48,598 nt of DNA from contig JBBTUK010000008.1 of assembly GCA_038063775.1 (NCBI GenBank), forward strand, positions 1 through 48,598. Direction: 5' to 3'. Position 1 is the stretch's first letter. Every line of letters starts with the position of its first letter. Source of the stretch: Patescibacteria group bacterium. GTDB taxonomy: Bacteria > Patescibacteriota > Minisyncoccia > Moranbacterales > UBA2206. The position numbers and the translations under genes are program-made. This document shows, in pieces, positions 7,186 through 42,398 of the stretch. Below the pieces are notes generated by a model. It saw nothing but the letters and a program-made list of their open reading frames with translations. It was not told the DNA's origin and did no database searches.

Positions 7186-8202
7186 ATGGCAAAAGAAACG
7201 GAAACAATTGAACTAGAAGCCGGAGCGGGTGGTGAAAAATCAAGCGAGCTGATTGAAAAAATCAGAAACAATTTTTCTTTACGCGGCAAATGGAAAAATA
7301 CCGGCGACGACGGAGCAGTTTTGGATTTGGGTCTCTCGACTTCGCTCGGGACAAATTTTTTAGGAAAAAATTTGGTTTTTACAACCGATGCTTTCATAGT
7401 GGATCCCATATTTTTTCCGGGAGGGAATATCGGAAAGATTTCCATGTGCGGGACGATCAATGATCTGGCTGTTATGGGCGCGCGGCCCATGGGCATCGCG
7501 CTGAGCCTGGTCATTGAAGAAGGCTTTCCACTAAGCGATCTTATGAAAATCACGAAGTCTATCGAAATCGTGTCGCGGCAGGCGGGCGTGCCTGTCGTAA
7601 CTGGCGATACGAAAGTCATGGAAAGAGGCAAGCTTGATAAAATAGAAATTACCACTTCCGGCGTGGGATTGGCGGATAAAGTAATTGAAAATAACGGTGC
7701 CGATCCGGGCGATCGGATAATCTCATCTGGTGATTTGGGAGAGCACACTGTCGCGCTTCTGGGCGTCCGGTTCAACTACAAAACTAAAATAAAAAGCGAT
7801 TCCCAAACGCTTCATAGAGAAATAGAAGCAGCCGGAAAATATCTGAAAGCGGCCAAAGATCCGACCCGGGGCGGACTGGCGGCCAATATCATTGAAATAG
7901 CCGAAAAATCAAGAGTAAAAATTATACTGGAAGATAATCTACTTCCCTTTAAGAAAGAAACTCGCGCTATCGCGGAGCTTTTAGGAATTGATGTTCTTTC
8001 TTTTGCTTCGGAAGGAAGGTTTATTGCCGCGGTTTCTTTTAAAAACACTCAAAAAGTTTTAAATATCCTAAAAAAATTCAATAAAGAAGCCAAAATAATC
8101 GGCCGGGTGAAAAAGGGCAAGGGGGTTTATTTGAAAACTAAAATCGGTACCGAAAGACCGATTGAATCGCCGCGGGGAAAGCTAGTCCCCAGAATCTGCT
8201 AG
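7186..8202 (+). CDS. hypE: [NiFe]-hydrogenase maturation protein HypE (carbamoyl dehydratase)
   Basis: PurM-like fold motifs and the invariant C-terminal PRIC. Confidence 0.92.
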   Translation: MAKETETIELEAGAGGEKSSELIEKIRNNFSLRGKWKNTGDDGAVLDLGLSTSLGTNFLGKNLVFTTDAFIVDPIFFPGGNIGKISMCGTINDLAVMGARPMGIALSLVIEEGFPLSDLMKITKSIEIVSRQAGVPVVTGDTKVMERGKLDKIEITTSGVGLADKVIENNGADPGDRIISSGDLGEHTVALLGVRFNYKTKIKSDSQTLHREIEAAGKYLKAAKDPTRGGLAANIIEIAEKSRVKIILEDNLLPFKKETRAIAELLGIDVLSFASEGRFIAAVSFKNTQKVLNILKKFNKEAKIIGRVKKGKGVYLKTKIGTERPIESPRGKLVPRIC

Positions 8203-9333
8203 GAGATAATAAACTATCTGCCCGAAAGAAACTCCGGCGTCCCCACGCGATATTTTTTTACTCGAGTAAACTCCTTTGCGTTCGAGATAGGAAGCAATTA
8301 TTTTATTATTGGCGATTCCGCCGGCAAAGAAACCAGCTTTTAGCTTAGAGCTTTTGGCTTCCAGCTTTAAAACTTTATATAAACCTTGGGCGATATAAAG
8401 CTGAGCGGTGGCGGCGAGGCGACGCTTGTCCCTGTTGATATTTTTAACTAGATATTCAAAAAGAGGAGTGGTCATTATCCCGTAACCCGTAACCCATAAC
8501 CCGTAACCCGTAATTCTTTTGATCTCTGGTTCTAGATCTTTGTAAGGTCTAGTGGAGTTTTTTTCGAGCAAGATCGCGGGGCTATGCTTATATTTCCTAA
8601 CATTACCTGAAAAGCCAAGCAGGACGGAAACCGCGTCCAAAATTCTTCCGGTGCTGGAAGTTTCCTGGCAGTTGAAATTTTGTTGAAGCTGATTATATAA
8701 TAGCTCGAATTGATTACGAGAGTAATATTTTTTAACAAGTCGATACAATTTATCTTTGGACATAAATTTGTCGAGGATGCTGATTAGCATGCGAGCCGGC
8801 TCGTTTACGGCCAAATCACCACCTATCAAAATTTGATTTTCCAAATGTCCGATTCTTTCAATACTTTTTACTTTTTCCTTCTTACTTTTTATTTTGAATA
8901 ATTCTCCACCCCAGATTTTTCTATCCAATCCGTAGCCGGTGCCGTCGCAGGCGATCCCGTAACCCGTAACCTGTAACCCGTAACCCGGTTCTTGGACAAT
9001 CTTATCTCCGATGGCAGAAAATACATGCGCTATATGATGTTGCACCTTTATATGGTTGGCTTTGTATTTTTTGCTCAAACTCTCTCCCAAAATAGTCGTC
9101 CTATAAAGAGGATGAAGATCGGTTAAAATTATGTTCGGCTTGGCTCGATTATTTTTCAAAAATTTTGCCACTGTCTGAATGAGTTTTTGAAAATTTTCTT
9201 CGCTTAATAAATCACCGAAAGATTCCGACCTATAAATCACTCCTTTGTAAAAAACTGAAAAATTACCGTCGGATTCCGGTCCCAAAGCCAGCAGGCAGTT
9301 ATGGGTATTTGCGGAGAAATTTATTGATTCCAT
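8182..9333 (-). CDS. hypF: HypF-like protein consisting only of the C-terminal Kae1-like domain
   Basis: Aligns by eye to E. coli HypF residues ~380-750: LALGPESDGNF, TDLHPLY, VQHHIAHV, ACDGTGYG...IWGGE, GGDLA, SSTGRILDAV, FAGGIANN, RGDAGVSFGQ. No acylphosphatase, Zn-finger or YrdC-like part. The 3' end overlaps hypE by 21 bp. Confidence 0.8.
   Translation of the reverse strand: MESINFSANTHNCLLALGPESDGNFSVFYKGVIYRSESFGDLLSEENFQKLIQTVAKFLKNNRAKPNIILTDLHPLYRTTILGESLSKKYKANHIKVQHHIAHVFSAIGDKIVQEPGYGLQVTGYGIACDGTGYGLDRKIWGGELFKIKSKKEKVKSIERIGHLENQILIGGDLAVNEPARMLISILDKFMSKDKLYRLVKKYYSRNQFELLYNQLQQNFNCQETSSTGRILDAVSVLLGFSGNVRKYKHSPAILLEKNSTRPYKDLEPEIKRITGYGLWVTGYGIMTTPLFEYLVKNINRDKRRLAATAQLYIAQGLYKVLKLEAKSSKLKAGFFAGGIANNKIIASYLERKGVYSSKKISRGDAGVSFGQIVYYLLADSGD
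8479..8513 (-). repeat. Heptanucleotide tandem array (GGGTTAC)n, five units, in frame inside the hypF-like gene
   Basis: Plus strand reads cccgtaa cccgtaa cccataa cccgtaa cccgtaa. It encodes ITGYGLWVTGYGI. Confidence 0.95.
8956..8986 (-). repeat. Second heptanucleotide array (GGGTTAC)n, about 4.5 units, in frame inside the hypF-like gene
   Basis: Plus strand reads cccgtaa cccgtaa cctgtaa cccgtaa cccg. It encodes PGYGLQVTGYGI. The 34-nt block matches 8477-8510 at 32/34 positions. Confidence 0.95.
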
Positions 9334-10169: not shown

Positions 10170-11102
10170 ATGGCCTTTTTAAAAAAATCATTATCGCTTA
10201 TTTTTGTCGTGATTGCAGTGGCCGCCGCCGGATTTGTGGTTTTTAAAAAGGGCCAGCCGGAATTGAGAAATTATATTCCAATTACCAAGCCCTGTTCATC
10301 GCCGCTTGCCTATGCCATTGGTAATGTTGATTCTCGATTTAACATAAGCAAGGACGGCGCGGCTGTGCTGGCTCAAAAGGCGGAGAATGTTTGGGAATCA
10401 CAGACGGGACTAGATTTGTTCCAATATGATCCGAACGCGCAACTGAAAATAAATTTTATATTTGACGCGCGGCAGCAGCAAGCGATTGAGGCCGTGGAAC
10501 TGGAACAAAAACTCGGAAAATTGAAAATTTCGGACAACAGCCTAAAAGTGCAATACAACAATCTGTATGCCGAGTATTCCAAAGAAATTGACAATTACAA
10601 CTCGTTGGCAAAAAAATACGAGAAGGAAATAAGTTCATATAACAAAGAAGTGAATCGCTGGAATAAAGTTGGGGGTGCGCCGCCGGATGAATATGAAAAG
10701 CTCAACAAAGAACAGGACGCTCTGGAAGCGATGCGAAAAAAACTGGAAAAAGAAAGAAAGAGCATCAACGATTTGATTAATCAGATGAATTCTCTGGCCA
10801 GCCGCGAAAAGCAGGTGATCAGCAGTTACAACGAATCATTGAACACTTTCCGGAACAAATACGGCGGAACGCGGGAATTTGAAAAAGGTATTTTCAATGG
10901 CCAAGAAGTTAACATTTACCAGTTTAATGAAGATTCAGATTTGGAATTAACAATCACTCACGAATTGGGCCATGCGCTCGGCATAGGGCATGTGGAAAAT
11001 ACCCAGTCAATCATGTATTATTTAATGGGAGAGCAGGACTTGGATCAGCCGACTCTTACAAGCGAGGATTTATCAGCGTTTAAAAGTGTTTGTCAATTAT
11101 GA
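10170..11102 (+). CDS. Membrane-anchored matrixin-like zinc metalloprotease with a long coiled-coil insert
   Basis: N-terminal TM helix (LSLIFVVIAVAAAGFVVF). HELGHALGIGH followed by SIMYY (Met-turn). About 150 aa of heptad-like K/E/N-rich sequence sits between the N-terminal and catalytic parts. Start taken at ATG 10170. Confidence 0.75.
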   Translation: MAFLKKSLSLIFVVIAVAAAGFVVFKKGQPELRNYIPITKPCSSPLAYAIGNVDSRFNISKDGAAVLAQKAENVWESQTGLDLFQYDPNAQLKINFIFDARQQQAIEAVELEQKLGKLKISDNSLKVQYNNLYAEYSKEIDNYNSLAKKYEKEISSYNKEVNRWNKVGGAPPDEYEKLNKEQDALEAMRKKLEKERKSINDLINQMNSLASREKQVISSYNESLNTFRNKYGGTREFEKGIFNGQEVNIYQFNEDSDLELTITHELGHALGIGHVENTQSIMYYLMGEQDLDQPTLTSEDLSAFKSVCQL

Positions 11103-11103
11103 A

Positions 11104-11206
11104 CCCCGTTAGAATTTTCAATTTATATATTGCGGGGCACTAAAAGTAATTAGTTTAATAATTTTCGCTGTTGACTTATAGCAATAGGTGTAAAATTATA
11201 ACGGGG
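11104..11206. mobile_element. MITE-like element (CCCCGTTAGAATTTT terminal inverted repeats) with TGAA duplication
   Basis: CCCCGTTAGAATTTTC (11104-11119) against the reverse complement of 11191-11206, CCCCGTTATAATTTTA: 14/16 (15/15 minus one mismatch over the first 15). TGAA at 11100-11103 and 11207-11210. Confidence 0.7.
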
Positions 11207-12465
11207 TGAACATAAAAATCAACCACATCGCGAAAATGGAAGGTCACGCGGGATTCATGGCCAGCGTTCTTCAGGGCGACGTGAAGTCGGCCAAGCTGGA
11301 AATCCAGGAAGGAATCCGTCTGATTGAAGGCGTGCTGATTGGCCGGGAATATAAAGATATGCCGATCGTGGCGCAACGGATTTGTGGAATTTGTCCGGTA
11401 GTACACAATTTAACCTCCATCAAAGCTTTGGAAAACGCTTTTGGGGTTGAGGTATCAAAAGAAACGAAAAAACTCAGGGAAGTTATGGAACTGGCGCAAA
11501 TTATCCATTCCCACGGATTGCATCTTTTCTTTTTATCGCTGGCCGATTTTTTGGATATGGAAAACGATTTGAATTTAATGCAAAAATATCCGGACGAGAC
11601 CAGAAAAGCCATTAGAATCCGGGAATATGGAATGGATATAGTTCGGGTTATCGGAGGCCGAGTAGTTCATCCACTGACCAATGAAGTGGGGGGATTCAAG
11701 AAAATTCCGGATAAAGAAGCGCTGAAAAAGATAGTTTCAGATTCCAAGGAAATATTGGGGCTAGCCATTGAATTGGGCGAGCTTTTTAAAAAAATAAAAA
11801 CTCCTGAATTTTACCGAAAAACCGAATATGTTTGTCTTGGAAAAAAAGGAGAATATGCCATTTATGATGGCGATATCGTTTCTTCCGAGGGCTTGCACAT
11901 ACCAGTGGCCAAGTTTGAAGCTAATTTTAACGAACTGCAAAAGCAGAAAGAAGTGATCAAAAAAGTCGAGCATGATGGAGAAAGTTATATGGTCGGCGCC
12001 ATTGCCAGAATCAATGTAAATCGGGAAAAACTTTCCTTGCAAGCAGAAAAATATTTGGAAAGTTTGAAGTGGAAATTTCCAGACTTCAATCCTTTCCATA
12101 ATATCTTGGCGCAAGTAACGGAAGTTATTCACGCCATTGAAAAATCAGCCGAACTTTTGCAGGAACTTATCAATTCTGATTTAAGGCAAGTTTTGACCAA
12201 GGAATATCAAATTAAAGAAGGTAGCGGAACGGCGGCCGTGGAAGCTCCGCGAGGGACTTTGTATTATCATGTGGAAGTGGATGGCAAAGGTTATATAAAG
12301 AATGTGAATATTATCACTCCCACCGCCCAATTCCTGGCGAATTTGGAAGATGATATAGCCAAATATATTCCGGAAATTCTGGATTTAGACGATAAAGAAA
12401 AAGAAAAAAAATTGCGAGCCTTTATCCGGGCTTATGATCCGTGCATCAGTTGCGCGGTGCATTAA
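11206..12465 (+). CDS. Cytoplasmic (group 3-type) [NiFe]-hydrogenase large subunit
   Basis: N-terminal RICGICPVVH and C-terminal DPCISCAVH Ni-binding motifs. The IAKMEGH N-terminus needs the GTG 11206 start, and an in-frame TAA lies at 11191. Confidence 0.9.
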   Translation: MNIKINHIAKMEGHAGFMASVLQGDVKSAKLEIQEGIRLIEGVLIGREYKDMPIVAQRICGICPVVHNLTSIKALENAFGVEVSKETKKLREVMELAQIIHSHGLHLFFLSLADFLDMENDLNLMQKYPDETRKAIRIREYGMDIVRVIGGRVVHPLTNEVGGFKKIPDKEALKKIVSDSKEILGLAIELGELFKKIKTPEFYRKTEYVCLGKKGEYAIYDGDIVSSEGLHIPVAKFEANFNELQKQKEVIKKVEHDGESYMVGAIARINVNREKLSLQAEKYLESLKWKFPDFNPFHNILAQVTEVIHAIEKSAELLQELINSDLRQVLTKEYQIKEGSGTAAVEAPRGTLYYHVEVDGKGYIKNVNIITPTAQFLANLEDDIAKYIPEILDLDDKEKEKKLRAFIRAYDPCISCAVH

Positions 12466-13862: not shown

Positions 13863-15434
13863 ATGTTCAAAATAATAATAAAAAACGGAACAATCATTGA
13901 TGGCAGCGGACAGCCGATGTATAAAGCGGACATTGGCATCAAGGAAGACCGGATTGCGGCTATCGGAGAGCTCCATAATGAAAAGTGTGAAATCGAAATT
14001 GACGCAGCCGAACTCCTGGTTTGTCCCGGAATAATTGATGTCAACAATCATAGCGATACATATTGGCAGATATTTGCTAATCCGAATTTGGAAAGTCTTG
14101 TTTATCAAGGAGTTACCACGATTATCGGAGGAAATTGCGGATCATCGCTCGCGCCGCTGGCTGATGCCGAAGCCATTGAATCTATCCAAAAATGGGTCAA
14201 TATAAAACGGGTCAATTTAAATTGGTTGAGCGTTGAAGAGCTTTTTGAAACTATTGAGCAAATAGGCCTGTCAGTGAATTTTGTGACGCTTATCGGTCAC
14301 GGAACTCTGCGCCGCGGAATCATAAAAAACGAAATGCGGAATTTGACGCCCAAAGAACTCGGCTATGTGGAAAAAATGTTAGACAGTTCCTTGCGGGATG
14401 GAGGTATCGGAATGTCAACCGGACTTATTTATACACATGCGCGCTTGGCCTCCACTGAAGAATTGATAGCGTTGGCCAAAATAGTTAGAAAATTTAACGG
14501 CATTTATACAACTCATATCAGAAATGAGCGGGAAAAATTCCTGGAGGCGGTTGAAGAGGCGCTGAAAATTGCGGAAGAATCCGGTGTCAAACTTCACATA
14601 TCACATCTCAAAGTAATGGAAAAGGAGAATTGGAGTTTGTTTGAAGCCGCGCTAACGGCAATTGAAAAAGCATATGAGCGGGGTGTAGATGTAACTTTTG
14701 ATGTTTTTCCTTATACTAACACCGGAACCGTTTTGTATACTCTTCTGCCTGAATGGGTATCGGCCGGGGGCAAAAAAATGCTAATTAATCGGCTAAAAGA
14801 TTCTTCCATCAGGGCTAAAGTTATTTCCGAGATGAAAGAATCCGGTTTTGATTATTCCAAAATTGAAATTGCTATATCGTCTCTCAATAGGATATTGAGC
14901 AAGAGAAGGATTTTGGATATAGCCAAATCACAGGAAAAATCAGTGGAAGATGCGATAGTAGACGTGTTGATAGCTTCCGAAGGCAGGGTCATCACTTCCA
15001 TTGAAAGCTTGAGCGAGGAAAATATTGAAAAAGCGGTGGCTCATCCATTATCCATAATTTCCACTAATGGAGCGGGTTACAGTATCGAACATTCAAAAAC
15101 CGGAGAAGTTGTCCATCCCAGAAGCTTCGGAACTTTTCCGAGAATCATATCCCAGTATGTTCTCGGAAAAAGAATTATCAGCTGGGAAGCGGCTATTCGG
15201 AAAATGACGGGTATTCCAGCCCAAAAATTCGGCATCAAAAAAAGAGGAGAAATAAAAGAAAAAAACTTTGCCGATATTATGATCATTAACCGGGATAAAT
15301 TAGCGGATTTAGCCACGGCGGAAAATCCATATCAATACAGCAAGGGAGTTGAATTTGTCTTAGTTAACGGTGAAATTATCTTAAGCGAAGGCGTTTATGG
15401 AGGAGGAAAGGGCGGAAGAATATTAATCCGATGA
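13863..15434 (+). CDS. D-aminoacylase (N-acyl-D-amino-acid deacylase) family amidohydrolase
   Basis: PGIIDVNNHSD, GGNCG, HIRNE and HISHLK motifs in D-aminoacylase order. Confidence 0.7.
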   Translation: MFKIIIKNGTIIDGSGQPMYKADIGIKEDRIAAIGELHNEKCEIEIDAAELLVCPGIIDVNNHSDTYWQIFANPNLESLVYQGVTTIIGGNCGSSLAPLADAEAIESIQKWVNIKRVNLNWLSVEELFETIEQIGLSVNFVTLIGHGTLRRGIIKNEMRNLTPKELGYVEKMLDSSLRDGGIGMSTGLIYTHARLASTEELIALAKIVRKFNGIYTTHIRNEREKFLEAVEEALKIAEESGVKLHISHLKVMEKENWSLFEAALTAIEKAYERGVDVTFDVFPYTNTGTVLYTLLPEWVSAGGKKMLINRLKDSSIRAKVISEMKESGFDYSKIEIAISSLNRILSKRRILDIAKSQEKSVEDAIVDVLIASEGRVITSIESLSEENIEKAVAHPLSIISTNGAGYSIEHSKTGEVVHPRSFGTFPRIISQYVLGKRIISWEAAIRKMTGIPAQKFGIKKRGEIKEKNFADIMIINRDKLADLATAENPYQYSKGVEFVLVNGEIILSEGVYGGGKGGRILIR

Positions 15435-15435
15435 A

Positions 15436-15497
15436 CCCCGTTAGATATGCGGGGAAATGCTGCGGGTAATAATGTAATGATAAATTATCTAACGGAG
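15436..15497. mobile_element. MITE-like element (CCCCGTTAGATA terminal inverted repeats) with TGAA duplication
   Basis: CCCCGTTAGATA (15436-15447) against the reverse complement of 15486-15497, CTCCGTTAGATA: 11/12. TGAA at 15432-15435 and 15498-15501. Confidence 0.7.
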
Positions 15498-16897
15498 TGA
15501 AGCTTGAAGATTTAAAAGGAAAAAAAATTACGGTCATGGGACTGGGGTTGCATGGTGGCGGTGTTGGCACGGTCCACTTTTTGCATTTAGCCGGAGCGCA
15601 AATAACGGTTACGGATCTCAAGTCCAAAGAAGAACTTGCGCCCTCGCTGGAAAAATTGAAAGAATTGAAAGGCATCAAGTATGTTTTAGGCCAACATCGT
15701 CCAGAGGACTTCACGGGGGCTGAAATGGTGATCAAAACACCTCCAGCGCCATGGAGCAATAAATATATAAAGTTAGCGCTGGATAAAAATATCCCGGTAG
15801 AAATAGATGCCAGTCTTTTTTTTAAACTTTGTAAAAATCCGATTATCGGCGTTACTGGTACCAAGGGAAAAACGACTACCGCAACCTTGTTATGCGAAAT
15901 TCTGAAAACCGCCGGAAAAAATCCTTTGAAAGCCGGAATCGGTCAGGTGTCCGTTTTGGATAAGCTAAAAGAACTTAAATCCGACAGCTTGGTGGTTTTT
16001 GAGCTTTCTAGCTGGCGCTTAAGCGCTCTCGGCCGATGTAACTTGAGTCCCAAAATTGCGATCTTAACCAATCTTTATCCGGATCACTTGAATTATTATA
16101 AAACATTTGAGCTGTATTTAAGGGATAAAAAATACATATTCTTAAACCAAAAGCCTGGTGATCTTTGCGTGGTTAACTGGGACGATGAAATTTTAAATAA
16201 ATTGGAACCAGAAATTAAATCTCAGCTAATTAAATTTTCAAAGCAAAAAATTTCCAAAGGCAAGTCAGTCTTTATAAGCGAGGGGGCGATTTATCTGAAT
16301 AACGGCATTGACGAAAAAAAAGTCTTAGAAGTTTCGGAAGTTAAGTTGAAAGGCGAGCATAATTTGTGGAATATTTTGGCCGGTATCGGAGCGGCCTACG
16401 CTCTCGGAATAGATCTGTCTGTTATTCGCAAAACCATCCTCAATTTTAAAAATATTCCCCATCGTCTGGAAATAGTGAGGGAATTAGACGGAATAAAATA
16501 TTATAATGATACGGCAGCTACTATGCCAGAAAGCGCAATTTCCGGGATTAATTCTTTTGAAGAGCCTGTAATCTTAATTTGTGGCGGAGCGGATAAAAAT
16601 TTAGACATGTCTCTTTTGGCGAAGACTATCCGGAAAAAAGTCAAGGGCGTAATATTTTTAAAAGGCATGGCGACAGACAAAATAATGGCGGAAATTAAAA
16701 AAATTATTCCCACGGAAGAAAAGGGCAAAGACTTCACGGTTGTGGAAACTATGGACAAAGCAGTTGAATTGGCGAGAGTTGTCGCCGAAGCGGGAGATGT
16801 GGTTCTGCTTTCGCCCGGCGCGGCGAGCTTCGGCCTTTTCGCTAATGAGTTTGATCGGGGCAATAAGTTCAGGGAGGCAGTAAATAAATTGGTTTAA
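15497..16897 (+). CDS. murD: UDP-N-acetylmuramoylalanine--D-glutamate ligase
   Basis: KKITVMGLGLHGGG and GVTGTKGKTTT P-loop, with Mur ligase middle and C-terminal motifs. GTG is the only in-frame start after the TAA at 15470. Confidence 0.88.
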   Translation: MKLEDLKGKKITVMGLGLHGGGVGTVHFLHLAGAQITVTDLKSKEELAPSLEKLKELKGIKYVLGQHRPEDFTGAEMVIKTPPAPWSNKYIKLALDKNIPVEIDASLFFKLCKNPIIGVTGTKGKTTTATLLCEILKTAGKNPLKAGIGQVSVLDKLKELKSDSLVVFELSSWRLSALGRCNLSPKIAILTNLYPDHLNYYKTFELYLRDKKYIFLNQKPGDLCVVNWDDEILNKLEPEIKSQLIKFSKQKISKGKSVFISEGAIYLNNGIDEKKVLEVSEVKLKGEHNLWNILAGIGAAYALGIDLSVIRKTILNFKNIPHRLEIVRELDGIKYYNDTAATMPESAISGINSFEEPVILICGGADKNLDMSLLAKTIRKKVKGVIFLKGMATDKIMAEIKKIIPTEEKGKDFTVVETMDKAVELARVVAEAGDVVLLSPGAASFGLFANEFDRGNKFREAVNKLV

Positions 16898-32161: not shown

Positions 32162-32431
32162 ATGATGTATAATTGGGGAAATATGATGGGCGGGGGCTAT
32201 GGATCTGGTTTTGGCTTGTTTGGGATGCTTTTCGGATGGTTTTTCACGATCTTGTTTGTGGGGTTGTTTATCTGGGGAATCATCACCCTTGTTAGGTGGA
32301 TGTCAGAACAAGGGTCAGGAAAGGATGCGAAGAAAGAGAACTCGGCGATTGCGATTCTCAAAGAACGCTACGCCAAAGGTGAGATTTCCAAGGAAGAGTT
32401 TGAAGAAAAGAAAAAAGACATTGTCTTATGA
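32162..32431 (+). CDS. Small membrane protein with C-terminal SHOCT domain
   Basis: Gly/Met-rich N-terminus, one TM helix, then ILKERYAKGEISKEEFEEKKKDI. Confidence 0.75.
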   Translation: MMYNWGNMMGGGYGSGFGLFGMLFGWFFTILFVGLFIWGIITLVRWMSEQGSGKDAKKENSAIAILKERYAKGEISKEEFEEKKKDIVL

Positions 32432-32471: not shown

Positions 32472-32855
32472 ATGGAATTCGATTACACCACAGCCACAGC
32501 TAAGATCTTTGATTCGGCGGTCCAAGACGTGCAGGATGAAATCGCCAAAGCCGGCATGCGCGTTTTGTATGTTCACGATGTGCAGAAAACTTTAGGCGAG
32601 AAAGGATTTGAAAGAGAACCTTTTAAGATTATTGAATTTTGCAGCGCAAAATTTGCCAGTGATTTTTTGGATATTGACATCAAGATCGGACTTTGTCTGC
32701 CTTGCAAGATAAATGTGTATGCAAAAAGCGGGCAAACTTTCATTTCCGGCATGCGGCCGATCATCCTGCCGCATTTTTTCCCGCAAGCGGATTTGGGCGA
32801 GAAGCCGAAAGAAATTGACCAAATCATCCAAAACATTATTAATAACGCAAAATAA
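32472..32855 (+). CDS. DUF302-family protein
   Basis: ~127 aa. The pattern ...FKIIEFCSAKFA...GLCLPCKINVY...G.T.IS..RP matches my recollection of the DUF302 consensus. Confidence 0.6.
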   Translation: MEFDYTTATAKIFDSAVQDVQDEIAKAGMRVLYVHDVQKTLGEKGFEREPFKIIEFCSAKFASDFLDIDIKIGLCLPCKINVYAKSGQTFISGMRPIILPHFFPQADLGEKPKEIDQIIQNIINNAK

Positions 32856-32865
32856 CCTATAGCCT

Positions 32866-33603
32866 ATGAAAAAGTTACTTTTTATCACAACTATTTTTAT
32901 TTTAGGTCTTACTTTTCCGACTTTTTCTTTTGCTCAAGGAATGATGGGTTTTCCGAGCTTATCTCTCAATGACGCTGCTATACAAAGCCAGCAACAAGAG
33001 GAACAAGAAGGCAAGAAGCTTCTTGACGACTTAAGCAACAAAACAGCTGATTGTTCCCAACTCAAAGATACAGACTTTGAGAAAATTGGTGAATATTTTA
33101 TGGGTCAATCCATTGGAGATACCTCCAGGCACATCCTCATGAATGAAATGATGAAAAGAATGATGGGTGAGAAAGGCGAAGAGCAAATGCACGCAGTCAT
33201 GGGCAAGCGGTTGAGCGGTTGCGACACTTCAGCCGCGTTTCCATCGCAGGATGTTGGCTTTATGCCAATGATGAATATGTTTGCCCAATATGGAGCCCCA
33301 GGTTCTCGTACGGGGATGATGGGAGGATGGTCGTCTCCCCTTGGGTCTAATCAGACAAATAATTCTATGATGAATTTTGGACTTTCATCTCTTGGCGGAT
33401 TTGGCTGGATTTTCATGATTCTTTGGTGGATTTTGATCATCGTAGGGGTCATCATGCTTATCAAACGGCTCACAGCGCAATCTCACGGCTCAAATAACCT
33501 GCATGATAAAAAAAAGTCCCCGCTTGAAATTCTGAAAGAACGCTACGCCAAAGGCGAGATTGATAAAAAAGAATTCGAGGAGAGAAAGAAAGATTTAATT
33601 TAA
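32866..33603 (+). CDS. Secreted or membrane Met-rich protein with C-terminal SHOCT domain
   Basis: Signal peptide and multiple M-x-M / MMG runs (MNEMMKRMMGEKGEEQMHAVMG, FMPMMNMF, GMMGGW). A TM helix, then ILKERYAKGEIDKKEFEERKKDLI. Confidence 0.7.
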   Translation: MKKLLFITTIFILGLTFPTFSFAQGMMGFPSLSLNDAAIQSQQQEEQEGKKLLDDLSNKTADCSQLKDTDFEKIGEYFMGQSIGDTSRHILMNEMMKRMMGEKGEEQMHAVMGKRLSGCDTSAAFPSQDVGFMPMMNMFAQYGAPGSRTGMMGGWSSPLGSNQTNNSMMNFGLSSLGGFGWIFMILWWILIIVGVIMLIKRLTAQSHGSNNLHDKKKSPLEILKERYAKGEIDKKEFEERKKDLI

Positions 33604-37727: not shown

Positions 37728-37808
37728 ATGTCTAAATATATTCCAGTTATCGGAATGGAGATTCACCCCGTAAAATCCCGAGGCGGGATCACGGGGCAAG
37801 CGTCTTAA
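37728..37808 (+). pseudogene. Ghost gatB 5' fragment: 13 GatB-like codons (MSKYIPVIGMEIH) running into a hairpin. 26-codon upstream ORF.
   Basis: 10 of 13 residues match the real GatB N-terminus (MSKYKPTIGLEIH). The stop TAA (37806-37808) lies 3 nt before the real ATG. Confidence 0.7.
37766..37796 (+). repeat. 31-nt palindromic element CCCCGTAAAATCCCG-AGG-CGGGATCACGGGG
   Basis: CCCCGT/ACGGGG and ATCCCG/CGGGAT stems. Followed by CAAG + 11 nt + ATG, the same layout as at miaB. Confidence 0.85.
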
Positions 37809-37811
37809 ATT

Positions 37812-39352: not shown

Positions 39353-39450
39353 TCCCGTTACAAAATTCACTTAAGACTTGAAATAACGGGATTTTCGCAA
39401 CAGTTTTTGTTTTTAATGCCATTAAATCGTATATCAAATTCGTAACGGGA
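39353..39450. mobile_element. MITE-like element (TCCCGTTAC... terminal inverted repeats) with TGAA duplication and an extra internal arm
   Basis: TCCCGTTACAAAATTC (39353-39368) against the reverse complement of 39435-39450, TCCCGTTACGAATTTG: 13/16. TGAA at 39349-39352 and 39451-39454. An internal TAACGGGATT (39384-39393) pairs with 39351-39360. Confidence 0.6.
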
Positions 39451-39572
39451 TGAAAAAGCTGAAATGGCCGAGCGCAATTAAATGGTTCTGCAAAGTGACA
39501 GGAAGGTCGCCCATAAAGGCGATTTTTTTTATGATATTTTTGGTTTTCAATAGTAATAAAAAACATTCGTGA
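39450..39572 (+). CDS. Candidate 40-aa hydrophobic peptide (MKKLKWPSAIKWFCKVTGRSPIKAIFFMIFLVFNSNKKHS)
   Basis: Open frame whose ATG is rebuilt by the MITE end, as at two verified genes. No SD and no homology recognised. Confidence 0.3.
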   Translation: MKKLKWPSAIKWFCKVTGRSPIKAIFFMIFLVFNSNKKHS

Positions 39573-40922: not shown

Positions 40923-42317
40923 TTAAGTATTGCCTAATTTACCTTCGAGATTCCATATATTGGCTTTGGTTATTTTAACTTTCACAAATTGTCCCACCAA
41001 ACCTTTTTTATTTGAAATAATCTTAACATTTTTCATTGTGCGTGTTTTTCCGAAGTAGAAATCGCCCTTTTTGCTATCAATTAGCACTTCCAGTGTTTTT
41101 CCAATATATTTTTTGTTGTTGGTAAAAACGGTTTTCTTCAGAATTTCGTTAAGATATTTTTCTCGCCTGGCTTTTTCCTTTTTGGATACGTTATCCTTCA
41201 TCTTCCAAGCAACCGTGCCCGGGCGGGGAGAGTATTGTCCGAAATATACCATATCATACATTGCTCTTTTCATCATTTCGGCCGAGGCAAGAAAATTCCT
41301 TTTTGTTTCACCAGGAAAGCCGACAATTATATCCGAAGTTATGGAAAATAATTTTTGTGGCTTATATCTTTTGAAAGCTACTTTTATTTTTTTGATCAAA
41401 GTCAGATATTGATGGCTGGTATATCGGCGGTTCATTTTCCGTATAATTGCATCATTGCCTGACTGAATTGGTAAATGAAAACACTCGCAAATCTTGGGAA
41501 GCTTGGCAACTGTTTCAATCATTTCATCCGTGACGTCTTTGGGGTGGTTGCTGATAAAACTGATCCAAAAATGCCCGGGGATGGCATTGATCGTCCTAAG
41601 TAGTTTTGAAAAAGTAATGACTTTATCCTCCTTCGCTGATGCTTCGGCGGATGAATTCTTATCGATAAATCGATAAGAATTCACATTCTGTCCCAGCAAA
41701 ACAATTTCTTTGTACCTATTTTTAACTAAATTTTTAACTTCTTTTATTATTTCCTCCGCTGGCCGTGAAACTTCGCGTCCTCTGGCATACGGCACTACAC
41801 AATAAGAGCAAAAATTATTACAGCCGGTCATGATCGGAATGTAGGCCTGGAATTTATTGGCATGCTTAGGTTTAATGGATAGATAGGCAATGCTTTCTTT
41901 GTTTGGAGTATTATTACTTTGTGTAATTTTCAATTTTAAATTTTCAATTTTCAATGAATTTTTAATGATAAAATTTTCAAATGTTTTAAAATCGTTTATG
42001 GTAAAAAACAAATTCACCTTATTTTTCAAACGCCTTTGCACATCTTTCCTGTTTGCCAAGCATCCTGTGAGAACAATTTTCACTTTTTTGCTGCTTTTTC
42101 TCAAATTATGGATTTGTCCATAAGCCCGGTCTTCAGCCATCTGCCGCACGCCGCAAGTGTTGAAAACAACCAAATCCGCCTTCGCTAAAGCTTCGGCGGA
42201 CAAGTCCGCTCCTGGTAAAGGCGAAAAACCACAACTTTCTAGACAAGCGGCAATTCGCTCCGAGTCCGAATGGTTCATCTGACAACCAAGAGTCTTGATA
42301 TAATATTTTTTAGTCAT
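40923..42317 (-). CDS. miaB: tRNA-2-methylthio-N6-dimethylallyladenosine synthase (radical SAM methylthiotransferase)
   Basis: IKTLGCQMNHSDSE UPF0004 N-domain, the CNNFCSYCVVP radical-SAM cluster and a C-terminal TRAM domain. Confidence 0.93.
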   Translation of the reverse strand: MTKKYYIKTLGCQMNHSDSERIAACLESCGFSPLPGADLSAEALAKADLVVFNTCGVRQMAEDRAYGQIHNLRKSSKKVKIVLTGCLANRKDVQRRLKNKVNLFFTINDFKTFENFIIKNSLKIENLKLKITQSNNTPNKESIAYLSIKPKHANKFQAYIPIMTGCNNFCSYCVVPYARGREVSRPAEEIIKEVKNLVKNRYKEIVLLGQNVNSYRFIDKNSSAEASAKEDKVITFSKLLRTINAIPGHFWISFISNHPKDVTDEMIETVAKLPKICECFHLPIQSGNDAIIRKMNRRYTSHQYLTLIKKIKVAFKRYKPQKLFSITSDIIVGFPGETKRNFLASAEMMKRAMYDMVYFGQYSPRPGTVAWKMKDNVSKKEKARREKYLNEILKKTVFTNNKKYIGKTLEVLIDSKKGDFYFGKTRTMKNVKIISNKKGLVGQFVKVKITKANIWNLEGKLGNT

Positions 42318-42323
42318 AGTGAT

Positions 42324-42398
42324 TCATTCTTGCCCCGTACCAAGCCCTGCTTTGGTACTGGGGTGACAACCGAAAGTTTTAATAAGATATTTTTTCAT
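42324..42398 (-). pseudogene. Ghost miaB 5' fragment: MKKYLIKTFGC then hairpin-encoded residues. 24-codon upstream ORF.
   Basis: Compare the real MiaB MTKKYYIKTLGCQMN. The frame leaves MiaB homology exactly at TGT CA|C CCC. The stop TGA lies 6 nt before the real ATG. Confidence 0.7.
42333..42363 (-). repeat. 31-nt palindromic element (minus strand CCCCAGTACCAAAGC-AGG-GCTTGGTACGGGG)
   Basis: Same length, same central AGG, same CCCC/GGGG ends and the same 3' ACGGGGCAAG as the gatB element. Confidence 0.85.

What the first reader, a model, noticed from the sequence alone, without database searches (positions are those of the whole stretch)
15432..15501. Second copy of the start-codon MITE: the murD GTG start is created by the element end
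The junctions read gATGAA|CCCCGTTAGATA ... TATCTAACGGAG|TGAAGCTT. The 12-nt inverted repeats match at 11/12 positions, and TGAA flanks both sides. Excision restores ATG AAG CTT GAA (MKLE, as in the present MurD VKLE) overlapping the amidohydrolase TGA stop. The only usable present start is GTG 15497, with no SD. The orphan ATG opens the mini-ORF MNPVRYAGKCCG. The first 16 nt (ATGAACCCCGTTAGAW) are nearly identical to the hydrogenase copy. An internal CCCCG-N9-CGGGG hairpin is shared with that copy.
Basis: seen in the sequence. Interest (0 to 1): 0.7.

Follow-up and report, generated by a model that had tools for sequence, protein, structure and literature searches.

The report
Tiny transposon splitting the murD start codon
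A 62-base non-coding mobile element has landed exactly in the overlapping stop/start codons between two genes of an uncultivated (CPR) bacterium, and its last base plus the duplicated target rebuilds a working GTG start for the cell-wall gene murD; it belongs to a large repeat family for which I found no published description.

Summary
Window 15436-15497 is a short MITE-like element. It has 12-nt terminal inverted repeats (11/12 match) and a duplicated TGAA on each side, and it sits in the ATGA stop/start overlap of an amidohydrolase gene and murD.

A relative (L186) has the exact empty site, ...agATGAAACTCGAAGAC. Seven other members of the same clade carry the element, a different allele or a decayed remnant, and all outgroups are empty.

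A flank-neutral metagenome scan found at least 120 contigs. Of 126 copies, 69 have a perfect 4-bp direct repeat (mostly TAAA or TGAA). Of 12 ATGAA-flanked copies, 10 are followed by a long ORF starting at the element's terminal G.

In element-bearing lineages murD codons 2-13 keep a coding signature (81/94/54% identity by codon position). The element-made GTG is therefore the real start, and the 453-aa gene call is truncated.

The "shared" hairpin is N9 in this copy and N24 in the other.

Unexpected: element orientation is strictly tied to the asymmetric target, and no transposase was found. This is a new variant of a known kind, of moderate interest.

The parts
13863..15434 (+). Amidohydrolase gene; its TGA stop (15432-15434) lies in the left copy of the duplicated target.
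   Evidence: ORF; Pfam Amidohydro_3/Amidohydro_1.
15431..15433 (+). Orphan ATG, the former murD start codon, now separated from murD.
   Evidence: Empty site in L186 reads agATGAAACTC with this ATG as the murD start.
15431..15469 (+). Mini-ORF MNPVRYAGKCCG* opened by the orphan ATG. Its first codons are encoded by the left inverted repeat.
   Evidence: Analogous mini-ORFs of 6-37 codons occur in other ATGAA-flanked copies.
15432..15435 (+). Left copy of the 4-bp target-site duplication, TGAA.
   Evidence: At family level, 69 of 126 copies have perfect 4-bp direct repeats.
15436..15447 (+). Left terminal inverted repeat, CCCCGTTAGATA.
   Evidence: Identical in the orthologous copy in L184.
15436..15454 (+). 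Left-end hairpin CCCCG-N9-CGGGG. It competes with the terminal stem for the left CCCC.
   Evidence: An internal G-run in the left half is seen in the AT-rich start-codon copies that contain a G-run.
15448..15485 (+). A/T-rich interior with no coding capacity. It evolves roughly neutrally between orthologous copies.
   Evidence: Interior identity is 56-64% against 44-56% at murD third codon positions.
15486..15497 (+). Right terminal inverted repeat, TATCTAACGGAG (one derived mismatch; orthologues have GGGG). Its last G is the first base of the murD start codon.
15498..15501 (+). Right copy of the target-site duplication, TGAA. Together with the element's terminal G it makes GTGAA.
15497..16897 (+). 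murD (UDP-N-acetylmuramoylalanine-D-glutamate ligase), starting at the element-created GTG.
   Evidence: Pfam MurD-like_N/Mur_ligase_M/Mur_ligase_C; N-terminal alignment; purifying selection on codons 2-13.
11104..11206 (+). Sister copy A (103 nt) between a matrixin-like peptidase gene and the NiFe-hydrogenase large-subunit gene. TSD TGAA at 11100-11103 and 11207-11210; GTG start at 11206.
   Evidence: Its interior is related to the L032 secE copy.
39353..39450 (+). Sister copy C (98 nt, termini TCCCGTTAC/GTAACGGGA), flanked by ATGAA and TGAA. Its terminal A makes an ATG that opens only a doubtful 40-aa ORF. An inner TAACGGGA lies at 39384-39391.

Best explanation
Window 15436-15497 is a short, non-autonomous DNA transposon (MITE-like) of a large family whose ends read CCCCGTTAGA...TCTAACGGGG. 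The family integrates at T(A/G)AA-type targets and duplicates 4 bp.

Here it integrated into the TGAA of an ATGAA in which the amidohydrolase TGA stop overlapped the murD ATG start. The target duplication keeps both genes intact. The left TGAA keeps the upstream stop and leaves an orphan ATG. The right TGAA, preceded by the element's terminal G, forms GTGAA, so murD now starts at GTG 15497 with an unchanged protein sequence.

**Shown:**
- the element's anatomy and its family membership;
- the 4-bp target duplication;
- the empty site in a relative;
- that the GTG position is the functional N-terminus.

**Inferred:**
- The insertion survives because it repairs the start codon. This would also explain why ATGAA-flanked copies are so often at gene starts, since insertions elsewhere in genes would be lost.
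- Ribosomes ending at the upstream TGA, or translating the mini-ORF, open the left arm of the terminal stem and so expose the GTG, preserving translational coupling.

**Unknown:** the mobilising enzyme.
For: **Anatomy.**

**Family.** Three copies lie in the window. Further copies sit exactly at the secE and rplA starts in L032, and the window's own rplA start is the matching empty site. At least 120 metagenome contigs matched a flank-neutral pattern. Of 126 copies, 69 have perfect 4-bp direct repeats, mainly TAAA/TTTA (36) and TGAA/TTCA (18).

**Start-codon landing.** Of 12 ATGAA-flanked copies, 10 precede an ORF of 74-543 codons (or one still open at the contig end) that starts at the terminal G. 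The background for ATGAA sites in the same contigs is 24%, giving P of about 3e-5.

**Empty and filled sites.** L186 is the empty site, and L184 and L189 carry the orthologous filled site. The nine-member clade has 94% bootstrap support, and L186 falls outside the eight filled taxa in 0.6% of replicates. All outgroups that keep the amidohydrolase-murD synteny lack the element (L006 has an unexplained 50-nt spacer after an ATGA).

**Start assignment.**: identity of 81/94/54% at codon positions 1/2/3 of codons 2-13, with the start codon kept as GTG, or TTG in L001.

**Not a described RNA family.** No Rfam family matches the element.
Against: - No autonomous partner or transposase was found between or beside copies.
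- Element orientation is strictly coupled to the asymmetric TSD: 84 of 84 similar pairs, and 19 against 6 outside the two large subfamilies. This is not expected of a classical symmetric-TIR DDE element.
- The terminal stem of this copy is not unusually stable (z = -1.0). The left arm has decayed in L185, L187 and L189 while murD persists, which weakens the coupling-by-stem idea.
- Alleles at this junction are incongruent with the MurD tree. The window and L183 are 92.7% identical in murD DNA but carry unrelated elements. The history therefore involves replacement or recombination, not one simple insertion.
Confidence: 0.85

Rival explanations
1. The element is mobile, but not as a classical cut-and-paste MITE. 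It would be moved by an orientation-specific mechanism, such as a single-strand Y1 transposase (IS200/IS605 PATE or REP/RAYT-like) or a site-specific recombinase that recognises the abutted ends GGGG-TRAA-CCCC. In that case the flanking TRAA pair is a core or target sequence and not a staggered-cut duplication.
For: - Interior orientation is strictly coupled to the orientation of the asymmetric TRAA flank.
- The target is strongly preferred, including the base before it: G in 27 of 34 TAAA copies.
- The whole element is a hairpin, with an extra left-end hairpin.
- An empty site nested among filled ones is compatible with seamless excision.
- No DDE transposase or TIR-flanked ORF was found.
Against: - The two flanks co-vary across many different tetranucleotides (TAAA, TGAA, TTGA, TCAA, TGGA, TATA and others). 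A true duplication produces this automatically, but IS200/IS605-type cleavage-site recognition does not.
- There is no GTAG/CGTC REP head.
- No Y1 or RAYT gene was seen next to copies, although sampling was limited to about 1 Mb of flanks.
Confidence: 0.25
2. At this locus the element is now chiefly a host-maintained cis-regulatory RNA. Its stem or right arm would control murD translation, by coupling to the amidohydrolase stop or by providing the initiation region. It would persist through selection, not through mobility.
For: - The right arm TCTAACGG(G/A)G next to the start codon is kept in seven of the eight element-bearing lineages (L188 has TTTAACAGGG; in L187 it has decayed), while the interior drifts at about the synonymous rate.
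- The interior of the long allele is 78% identical between L183 and L001, against 51% at murD third positions.
- The stop codon abuts the left arm and the start codon is in the right arm.
Against: - The left arm, and hence the stem, has decayed in L185, L187 and L189.
- There are no compensatory changes.
- The fold is not exceptional.
- The same ends occur at hundreds of unrelated sites with target duplications.
- L186 and all outgroups manage without it.
Confidence: 0.15
3. Ribosomes start at the old ATG 15431 and bypass (hop over) the element to resume at AAG 15500, as with phage T4 gene 60 or the mitochondrial byp elements.
For: Identical TGAA on both sides and a hairpin between them. The protein product would be the same as from a GTG start.
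Against: - There is no stop codon directly after a take-off codon and no nascent peptide at codon 1.
- The position is kept as a canonical start codon (GTG or TTG) in all eight lineages.
- In L187 the remnant is simply read through in frame.
Confidence: 0.02
4. A chance inverted repeat in an A/T-rich spacer.
For: The 12-mer with up to 2 mismatches is not over-represented in the window on its own.
Against: The same ends, flanks and size class recur in the window, in related genomes and in at least 120 metagenome contigs, with 4-bp direct repeats 69 times out of 126.
Confidence: 0.01

Closest known systems
Bacterial MITEs in general (e.g. Correia elements of Neisseria, Nezha of cyanobacteria; reviewed in PMC3184786)
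   Same: Small size (30-110 nt), terminal inverted repeats, short target-site duplication, many dispersed copies, no transposase gene, filled and empty sites in relatives, long hairpin at the RNA level.
   Different: The ends and target (CCCCGTTAGA..., TRAA) match no family I could find in the searchable literature. Orientation is tied to the target. No parent IS was found. Copies recur exactly on start codons and stop/start overlaps.
Neisseria REP2 and Borrelia IR repeats (PMC3184786, sections read)
   Same: Dispersed repeats that provide the translation start of the downstream gene.
   Different: [quoted passage not shown] Here the element contributes a single G, which combines with the duplicated target to rebuild the start codon of an existing gene.
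Rickettsia palindromic elements and other repeat-ORF fusions (cited in PMC3184786)
   Same: Palindromic repeats tolerated inside or fused to coding sequence. The L187 remnant is read in frame as a 20-aa MurD extension.
   Different: In the window the element is not translated as part of MurD. It sits between a stop and a start.
REP/REPIN elements with RAYT transposases, and IS200/IS605-derived palindromic elements (PMC3116915, PMC2817692, PMC3733652; features from general knowledge)
   Same: Hairpin-forming repeats, strong orientation and target specificity, possibly seamless excision, and an enzyme not encoded by the repeat.
   Different: REPs carry a GTAG/CGTC head and make no target duplication. 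Here 4-bp flanks are duplicated, and no Y1 gene was seen nearby.
piggyBac superfamily / IS1380 family (from memory, not tested)
   Same: 4-bp T-A-rich duplication (TTAA there, TAAA/TGAA here), ends beginning CCC, precise excision.
   Different: The target here is asymmetric and the orientation is fixed. No such transposase was found. The resemblance is only a lead.

Membership tests
MITE (non-autonomous class II element) | Small size and no transposase coding capacity | tested here: met
   62 nt; the only ORF is a 12-codon mini-ORF. Family members are 30-110 nt.
MITE (non-autonomous class II element) | Terminal inverted repeats | tested here: met
   11/12 in the window copy and 12/12 in the orthologue L184. 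Up to 23 nt in other copies.
MITE (non-autonomous class II element) | Target-site duplication flanking the element | tested here: met
   TGAA on both sides. 69 of 126 family copies have a perfect 4-bp direct repeat.
MITE (non-autonomous class II element) | Multiple dispersed copies within and between genomes | tested here: met
   Three in the window, two in L032, and at least 120 metagenome contigs with up to five or more copies per 8 kb.
MITE (non-autonomous class II element) | Empty orthologous sites consistent with insertion or excision | tested here: met
   L186 for murD; the window's rplA start against L032.
MITE (non-autonomous class II element) | A cognate autonomous IS with the same ends | tested here: inconclusive
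   None found among TIR half-sites 0.5-5 kb apart or between neighbouring copies. No hits in annotated plasmids or phages. Only the fetched flanks were searched.
REP / REPIN (RAYT-mobilised) | 20-40 nt palindrome with a conserved GTAG or CGTC head | tested here: not met
   The ends are CCCCGTTAGA/TCTAACGGGG, with no such head.
REP / REPIN (RAYT-mobilised) | No target-site duplication | tested here: not met
   4-bp direct repeats in 69 of 126 copies.
REP / REPIN (RAYT-mobilised) | A RAYT (Y1 transposase) gene flanked by the repeats | tested here: inconclusive
   ORFs between close copies appear, by inspection of their translations, to be housekeeping genes. Whole genomes were not available.
IS200/IS605-derived palindromic element | Orientation-specific insertion next to a specific tetra- or pentanucleotide | tested here: met
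   The interior is always in the same orientation relative to TRAA, and the preceding base is biased.
IS200/IS605-derived palindromic element | No terminal inverted repeats and no duplication; separate subterminal hairpins at each end | tested here: not met
   Long terminal inverted repeats and co-varying 4-bp flanks.
Integron attC site | Palindrome reading RYYYAAC ... GTTRRRY | tested here: not met
   The element reads GTTAGAT ... ATCTAAC, the opposite polarity (motif definition from general knowledge).
Any Rfam RNA family | Match at the gathering threshold | tested here: not met
   No hit on the element in the window or in 10 loci carrying copies.

The most novel reading that the evidence does not exclude
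The CCCCGTTAGA...TCTAACGGGG elements are a very widespread, undescribed family of hairpin transposons in uncultivated bacteria (contig GC 32-65%). They would integrate in one fixed orientation at RTRAA, excise seamlessly, and be moved by an enzyme that is not an ordinary IS transposase, perhaps a host-encoded single-copy gene. Because the terminal G plus the duplicated TGAA regenerates a start codon, they would colonise start codons and stop/start overlaps of essential genes without harm, and sometimes become leader ORFs or N-terminal extensions.
Probability: 0.25. Interest if true: 0.7.

Novelty: new variant of a known kind. Interest (0 to 1): 0.5.

Why it matters
- **Annotation.** Gene callers truncate the affected genes. 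The window's MurD is on record as 453 aa instead of 466, and several relatives are also called about 13 residues short; the four I fetched all carry an element.
- **Mobile-DNA biology.** A transposon can sit inside the start codon of essential genes (murD, secE, rplA, a hydrogenase subunit) because its own end repairs the codon. This gives a clear example of how target choice, end sequence and selection together shape where repeats survive in tiny, gene-dense CPR genomes.
- **Mechanism.** Strict orientation relative to a 4-bp duplicated target, with no transposase in sight, hints at an uncharacterised mobilisation route that could be worth finding.
- **Evolution.** One junction shows empty, short, long, decayed and in-frame-exapted alleles within one clade, which makes it a compact natural series for studying the fate of such insertions.

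Tried and rejected
- **Promoter or terminator in or near the element.** The scan of 15300-15650 found none. An outward promoter giving a leaderless murD mRNA is therefore not supported for this copy.
- **Unusual RNA stability.** The fold of copy B is ordinary for its composition (z = -1.0). Only copy A stands out (z = -2.8).
- **Autonomous partner.** TIR half-sites 0.5-5 kb apart enclose what look, from their translations, like ordinary genes. ORFs between close copies look like YbeY, thioredoxin, a response regulator, an epimerase and similar (by eye, not scanned against Pfam). The window proteins I tested hold no transposase domain.
- **Annotated collections.** Consensus sequences of the two GC-rich subfamilies have no match in 72,556 plasmids or 50,697 phages. 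Only 1 of 2.9 million viral contigs matches the pattern.
- **Literature.** The end sequences occur only as unrelated primers. A 2024 survey of prokaryotic MITEs does not mention Patescibacteria or start codons.
- **"A and B are deletion derivatives of one parent."** A is related in its interior to the L032 secE copy. B aligns only with two large gaps and weak similarity. This is not shown.
- **attC-like site.** Rejected on motif polarity.
- **Precise excision in L186.** Suggested by its nested position but not proven. Alleles are incongruent with the tree, so recombination or ancestral polymorphism could also explain it.
- **5'-end duplications around TTCA...CAAG-class metagenome copies.** None found above background.
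Full report
**1.

The window reads ...aatccgATGAA|CCCCGTTAGATATGCGGGGAAATGCTGCGGGTAATAATGTAATGATAAATTATCTAACGGAG|TGAAGCTTGAAGAT.
- The 12-nt ends (15436-15447 and 15486-15497) are complementary at 11/12 positions.
- TGAA flanks both sides (15432-15435 and 15498-15501).
- The 523-aa amidohydrolase ORF ends with TGA at 15432-15434. The murD frame is closed upstream by a TAA, and its first possible start is GTG 15497. Pfam confirms both proteins.
- The orphan ATG 15431 opens MNPVRYAGKCCG*.

The 11.1-kb copy has the same layout, tATGAA|CCCCGTTAGAAT...ATTATAACGGGG|TGAACAT, in front of the hydrogenase large-subunit gene. I found a third copy at 39353-39450 (ATGAA|TCCCGTTAC...GTAACGGGA|TGAAAAAG).

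Two details of the finding need correcting:
- The CCCCG...CGGGG hairpin has a 9-nt loop in this copy but a 24-nt loop in copy A.
- The absence of a Shine-Dalgarno site is the rule in this genome. Only 1 of 42 long ORFs has an SD-like motif, and the usual upstream context is simply A/T-rich.

**2. Whose genome, and what relatives show at this junction**

MurD relatives identify the window as a Candidatus Moranbacteria (CPR/Patescibacteria) genome. More distant relatives that keep the amidohydrolase-murD synteny have short spacers and plain ATG starts (ATGAAA, ATGAAT, ATGCAA) with no element.

Within the window's own clade the junction shows five states:

| State | Loci | Description |
|---|---|---|
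| Empty | L186 | ...gtcagATGAAACTCGAAGAC. The upstream TGA overlaps the murD ATG, which is exactly the state obtained by removing the element plus one TGAA. |
| Short allele | window, L184, L189; L185 with a decayed left arm | L184 has perfect 12-nt repeats. |
| Decayed remnant | L187 | Read in frame from the old ATG, giving a 486-aa MurD with a 20-aa extension. |
| Divergent copy | L188 | Different terminal repeats at the same site. |
| Long allele (~100 nt) | L183, L001 | The left flank is the inverted (TTCAC/TTCAA), not the direct, repeat of the right flank. In L001 murD starts with TTG. |

A MurD tree groups these nine taxa with 94% bootstrap support. L186 falls outside the eight filled taxa in only 0.6% of replicates.

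The alleles do not follow the tree. The window and L183 are sisters (92.7% identical murD DNA) but carry unrelated elements. L183 and L001 are only 76% identical in murD DNA, yet share a long allele whose interior is 78% identical.

The site is therefore an old hotspot with allele turnover. Seamless excision in L186 is plausible but not proven, because recombination or ancestral polymorphism would also fit.

**3. The family**

Other Moranbacteria carry copies exactly at gene starts. In L032 they precede secE and rplA:
- secE: ...aaaaagtATGAG|element|GTGAACAAAATC
- rplA...gaaaatatATGAA|element|GTGAAGCACGGG

The window's own rplA start...cgaaaatat|ATGAAACACGG, is the matching empty site.

Among the 126 copies analysed:
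- 69 have identical 4-bp flanks, against about 0.5 expected. These are TAAA/TTTA (36), TGAA/TTCA (18), TTGA/TCAA (7) and several others. A further 9 copies have inverted flanks like L001.
- In the TGAA class the preceding base is A in 12, G in 5 and T in 1.
- Of the 12 ATGAA copies, 10 are followed by an ORF of 74-543 codons (or one still open at the contig end) starting at the element's last G. The background is 24% for ATGAA sites in the same contigs, giving P of about 3e-5.
- More cases appeared by eye: genes whose open frame begins ...SNGV(K/N).
- Many contigs hold several copies of 30-110 nt.
- The host contigs range from 32 to 65% GC.

Rfam has no model for the element. The end sequences are absent from the searchable literature in any relevant context. 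Annotated plasmids and phages have no match, and viral contigs have a single hit.

**4. Is the GTG really the start?**

The gene caller behind the public record chose the internal ATG 13 codons downstream (P0001, 453 aa, 100% identical). Three lines of evidence say that call is truncated:
- GTG 15497 aligns with Met1 of relatives that start with ATG.
- In the eight element-bearing lineages, codons 2-13 have no frameshift or stop. They show 81%, 94% and 54% identity at codon positions 1, 2 and 3, which is the signature of translated sequence. The element interior next door drifts at roughly the synonymous rate.
- Seven of the eight lineages have no other in-frame start upstream, and the position is always GTG or TTG.

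Translation therefore begins at the codon made of the element's terminal G and the duplicated TG.

**5. How it most likely works**

*Shown:*
- The element is a member of a dispersed family that duplicates 4 bp at T(A/G)AA-type targets.
- At this site the duplication leaves the upstream stop in the left copy and a start in the right copy.

*Inferred:*
- Insertions into ATGAA or GTGAA start codons and ATGA/GTGA overlaps persist because they are nearly neutral, whereas insertions into other ATGAA sites inside genes are lost. This would explain the enrichment at starts.
- The GTG lies at the foot of the terminal stem, and the stop codon (or the mini-ORF) lies directly before the left arm. Upstream translation should therefore open the stem and expose the start. 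I hold this part with low confidence. The stem of this copy is not unusually stable, no promoter or terminator was detected, and the left arm has decayed in some lineages without loss of murD. The right arm next to the start is better conserved than the left.

**6. The anomaly**

When copies are oriented by their TSD (TAAA or TGAA), all 84 strongly similar interior pairs align in the same direction. These pairs come from two GC-rich subfamilies with conserved internal hairpins.

Outside those subfamilies the interiors still show a consistent strand asymmetry (19 against 6, P = 0.015). In every AT-rich start-codon copy that contains a G-run, it lies in the left half.

A symmetric-TIR cut-and-paste element should insert in either orientation. 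This, the bias for G or A before the target, the possible seamless excision and the lack of any nearby transposase leave room for a single-strand or site-specific mechanism. Against that, the two flanks co-vary over many tetranucleotides, as a real duplication does.

**7. Comparison with what is known**

The element meets every structural criterion of a MITE except a known parent IS.
- It is not a REP/REPIN: there is no GTAG/CGTC head and a duplication is present.
- It is not an IS200/IS605-type element: it has long terminal repeats and a duplication.
- It is not an attC site: the motif polarity is wrong.
- Repeats that donate translation starts are known (Neisseria REP2, Borrelia IR; PMC3184786). 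Those carry their own promoter, RBS and ATG, whereas this one rebuilds the host's codon with one base.

I file it as a new variant of a known kind.

**8. Verdict**

It is an old MITE-type insertion that split the amidohydrolase/murD ATGA overlap and supplies the G of murD's GTG start.

Interest is moderate (0.5). It bears on CPR gene annotation and shows how a transposon can occupy start codons. The fixed orientation and the missing enzyme are a lead that could prove more interesting.

Noticed in passing
window 37728-37811 (+): Just upstream of gatB (ATG 37812) lies a diverged duplicate of gatB's own first ~12 codons (37728-37765, ending GAGATTCA; 28 of 38 nt identical by eye). Then come a hairpin CCCCGTAAAATCCCGaggCGGGATCACGGGG (37766-37796), CAAG plus 11 nt, and the real ATG. 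The old ATG opens a 26-codon ORF that runs through the hairpin and stops 3 nt before the real start.
   Followed up: partly
window 42318-42398 (- strand): The same layout precedes the MiaB/RimO-type methylthiotransferase gene (40923-42317, Pfam). It has a duplicate 5' end ATGAAAAAATATCTTATTAAAACTTTCGGTTGTCA, a hairpin CCCCAGTACCAAAGCAGGGCTTGGTACGGGG (42363-42333), CAAG plus 11 nt, then the real ATG. Two such cases in one window are unexplained. No similar duplications were found around TTCA...CAAG-class copies in metagenome loci.
   Followed up: partly
whole window: The genome hardly uses Shine-Dalgarno sites: 1 of 42 long ORFs has an SD-like motif at -16 to -4, and upstream regions are A/T-rich. 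Two of the four GTG starts listed are the ones made by elements A and B.
   Followed up: yes
window 15497-15535; protein P0001: The public gene call for this same MurD is 453 aa, starting at the internal ATG 15536. Several relatives were also called 452-454 aa, and the four that I fetched all carry an element. This is a systematic N-terminal truncation caused by the element.
   Followed up: yes
L187 1501-1560: A decayed remnant of the element is read in frame from the old ATG, giving MurD a 20-aa N-terminal extension (MLPDMLGRREIIIKLQTIQK-VKLEDIK). This looks like exaptation of repeat DNA into coding sequence.
   Followed up: partly
L183 ~964-1072 and L001 ~2527-2638: The long allele at the murD junction has an inverted, not a direct, flank (TTCAC/TTCAA ... 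GTGAA/TTGAA), extending the palindrome to 23 bp in L001. Nine of 126 metagenome copies show the same inverted-flank type. The origin is unknown; palindrome extension or recombination between opposed copies are possibilities.
   Followed up: partly
L157 (1903-1993, 5566-5656, 9463-9552); also L074, L129, L130: Some copies share longer conserved flanks (GCAACGATTCA on one side, CRRGGTTGAAGC on the other) and recur every ~3.7-3.9 kb in L157. This suggests they are embedded in a larger repeated unit.
   Followed up: no
metagenome copies, flank class CTTG/CCTG/CTCG | element | TGAA/TAAA: About 16 of 126 copies have a C-Y-Y-G tetranucleotide on one side instead of a duplicated TRAA. CTTG is, from memory, the IS91 target tetranucleotide. 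The significance is unknown.
   Followed up: no
window 39451-39540: After copy C the sequence ends in a terminator-like hairpin, GTCGCCCATAAAGGCGAT followed by a T-run. The only ORF is a doubtful 40-aa one, so this may be a small RNA gene or a leader. There is no Rfam hit at gathering threshold.
   Followed up: no
window 8477-8524 and 8954-8987: Two arrays of a heptamer repeat (GTAACCC/ATAACCC)n lie 463 nt apart, inside or next to the minus-strand ORF 8182-9333 (family D4).
   Followed up: no
window 32333-32418 and 33508-33593: An 86-nt direct repeat (74% identity) encodes a similar ...LKERYAKGEI..EEFEE.KK motif at two places 1175 nt apart, one just before ORF 32472-32855 and one in the 3' end of ORF 32866-33603.
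   Followed up: no
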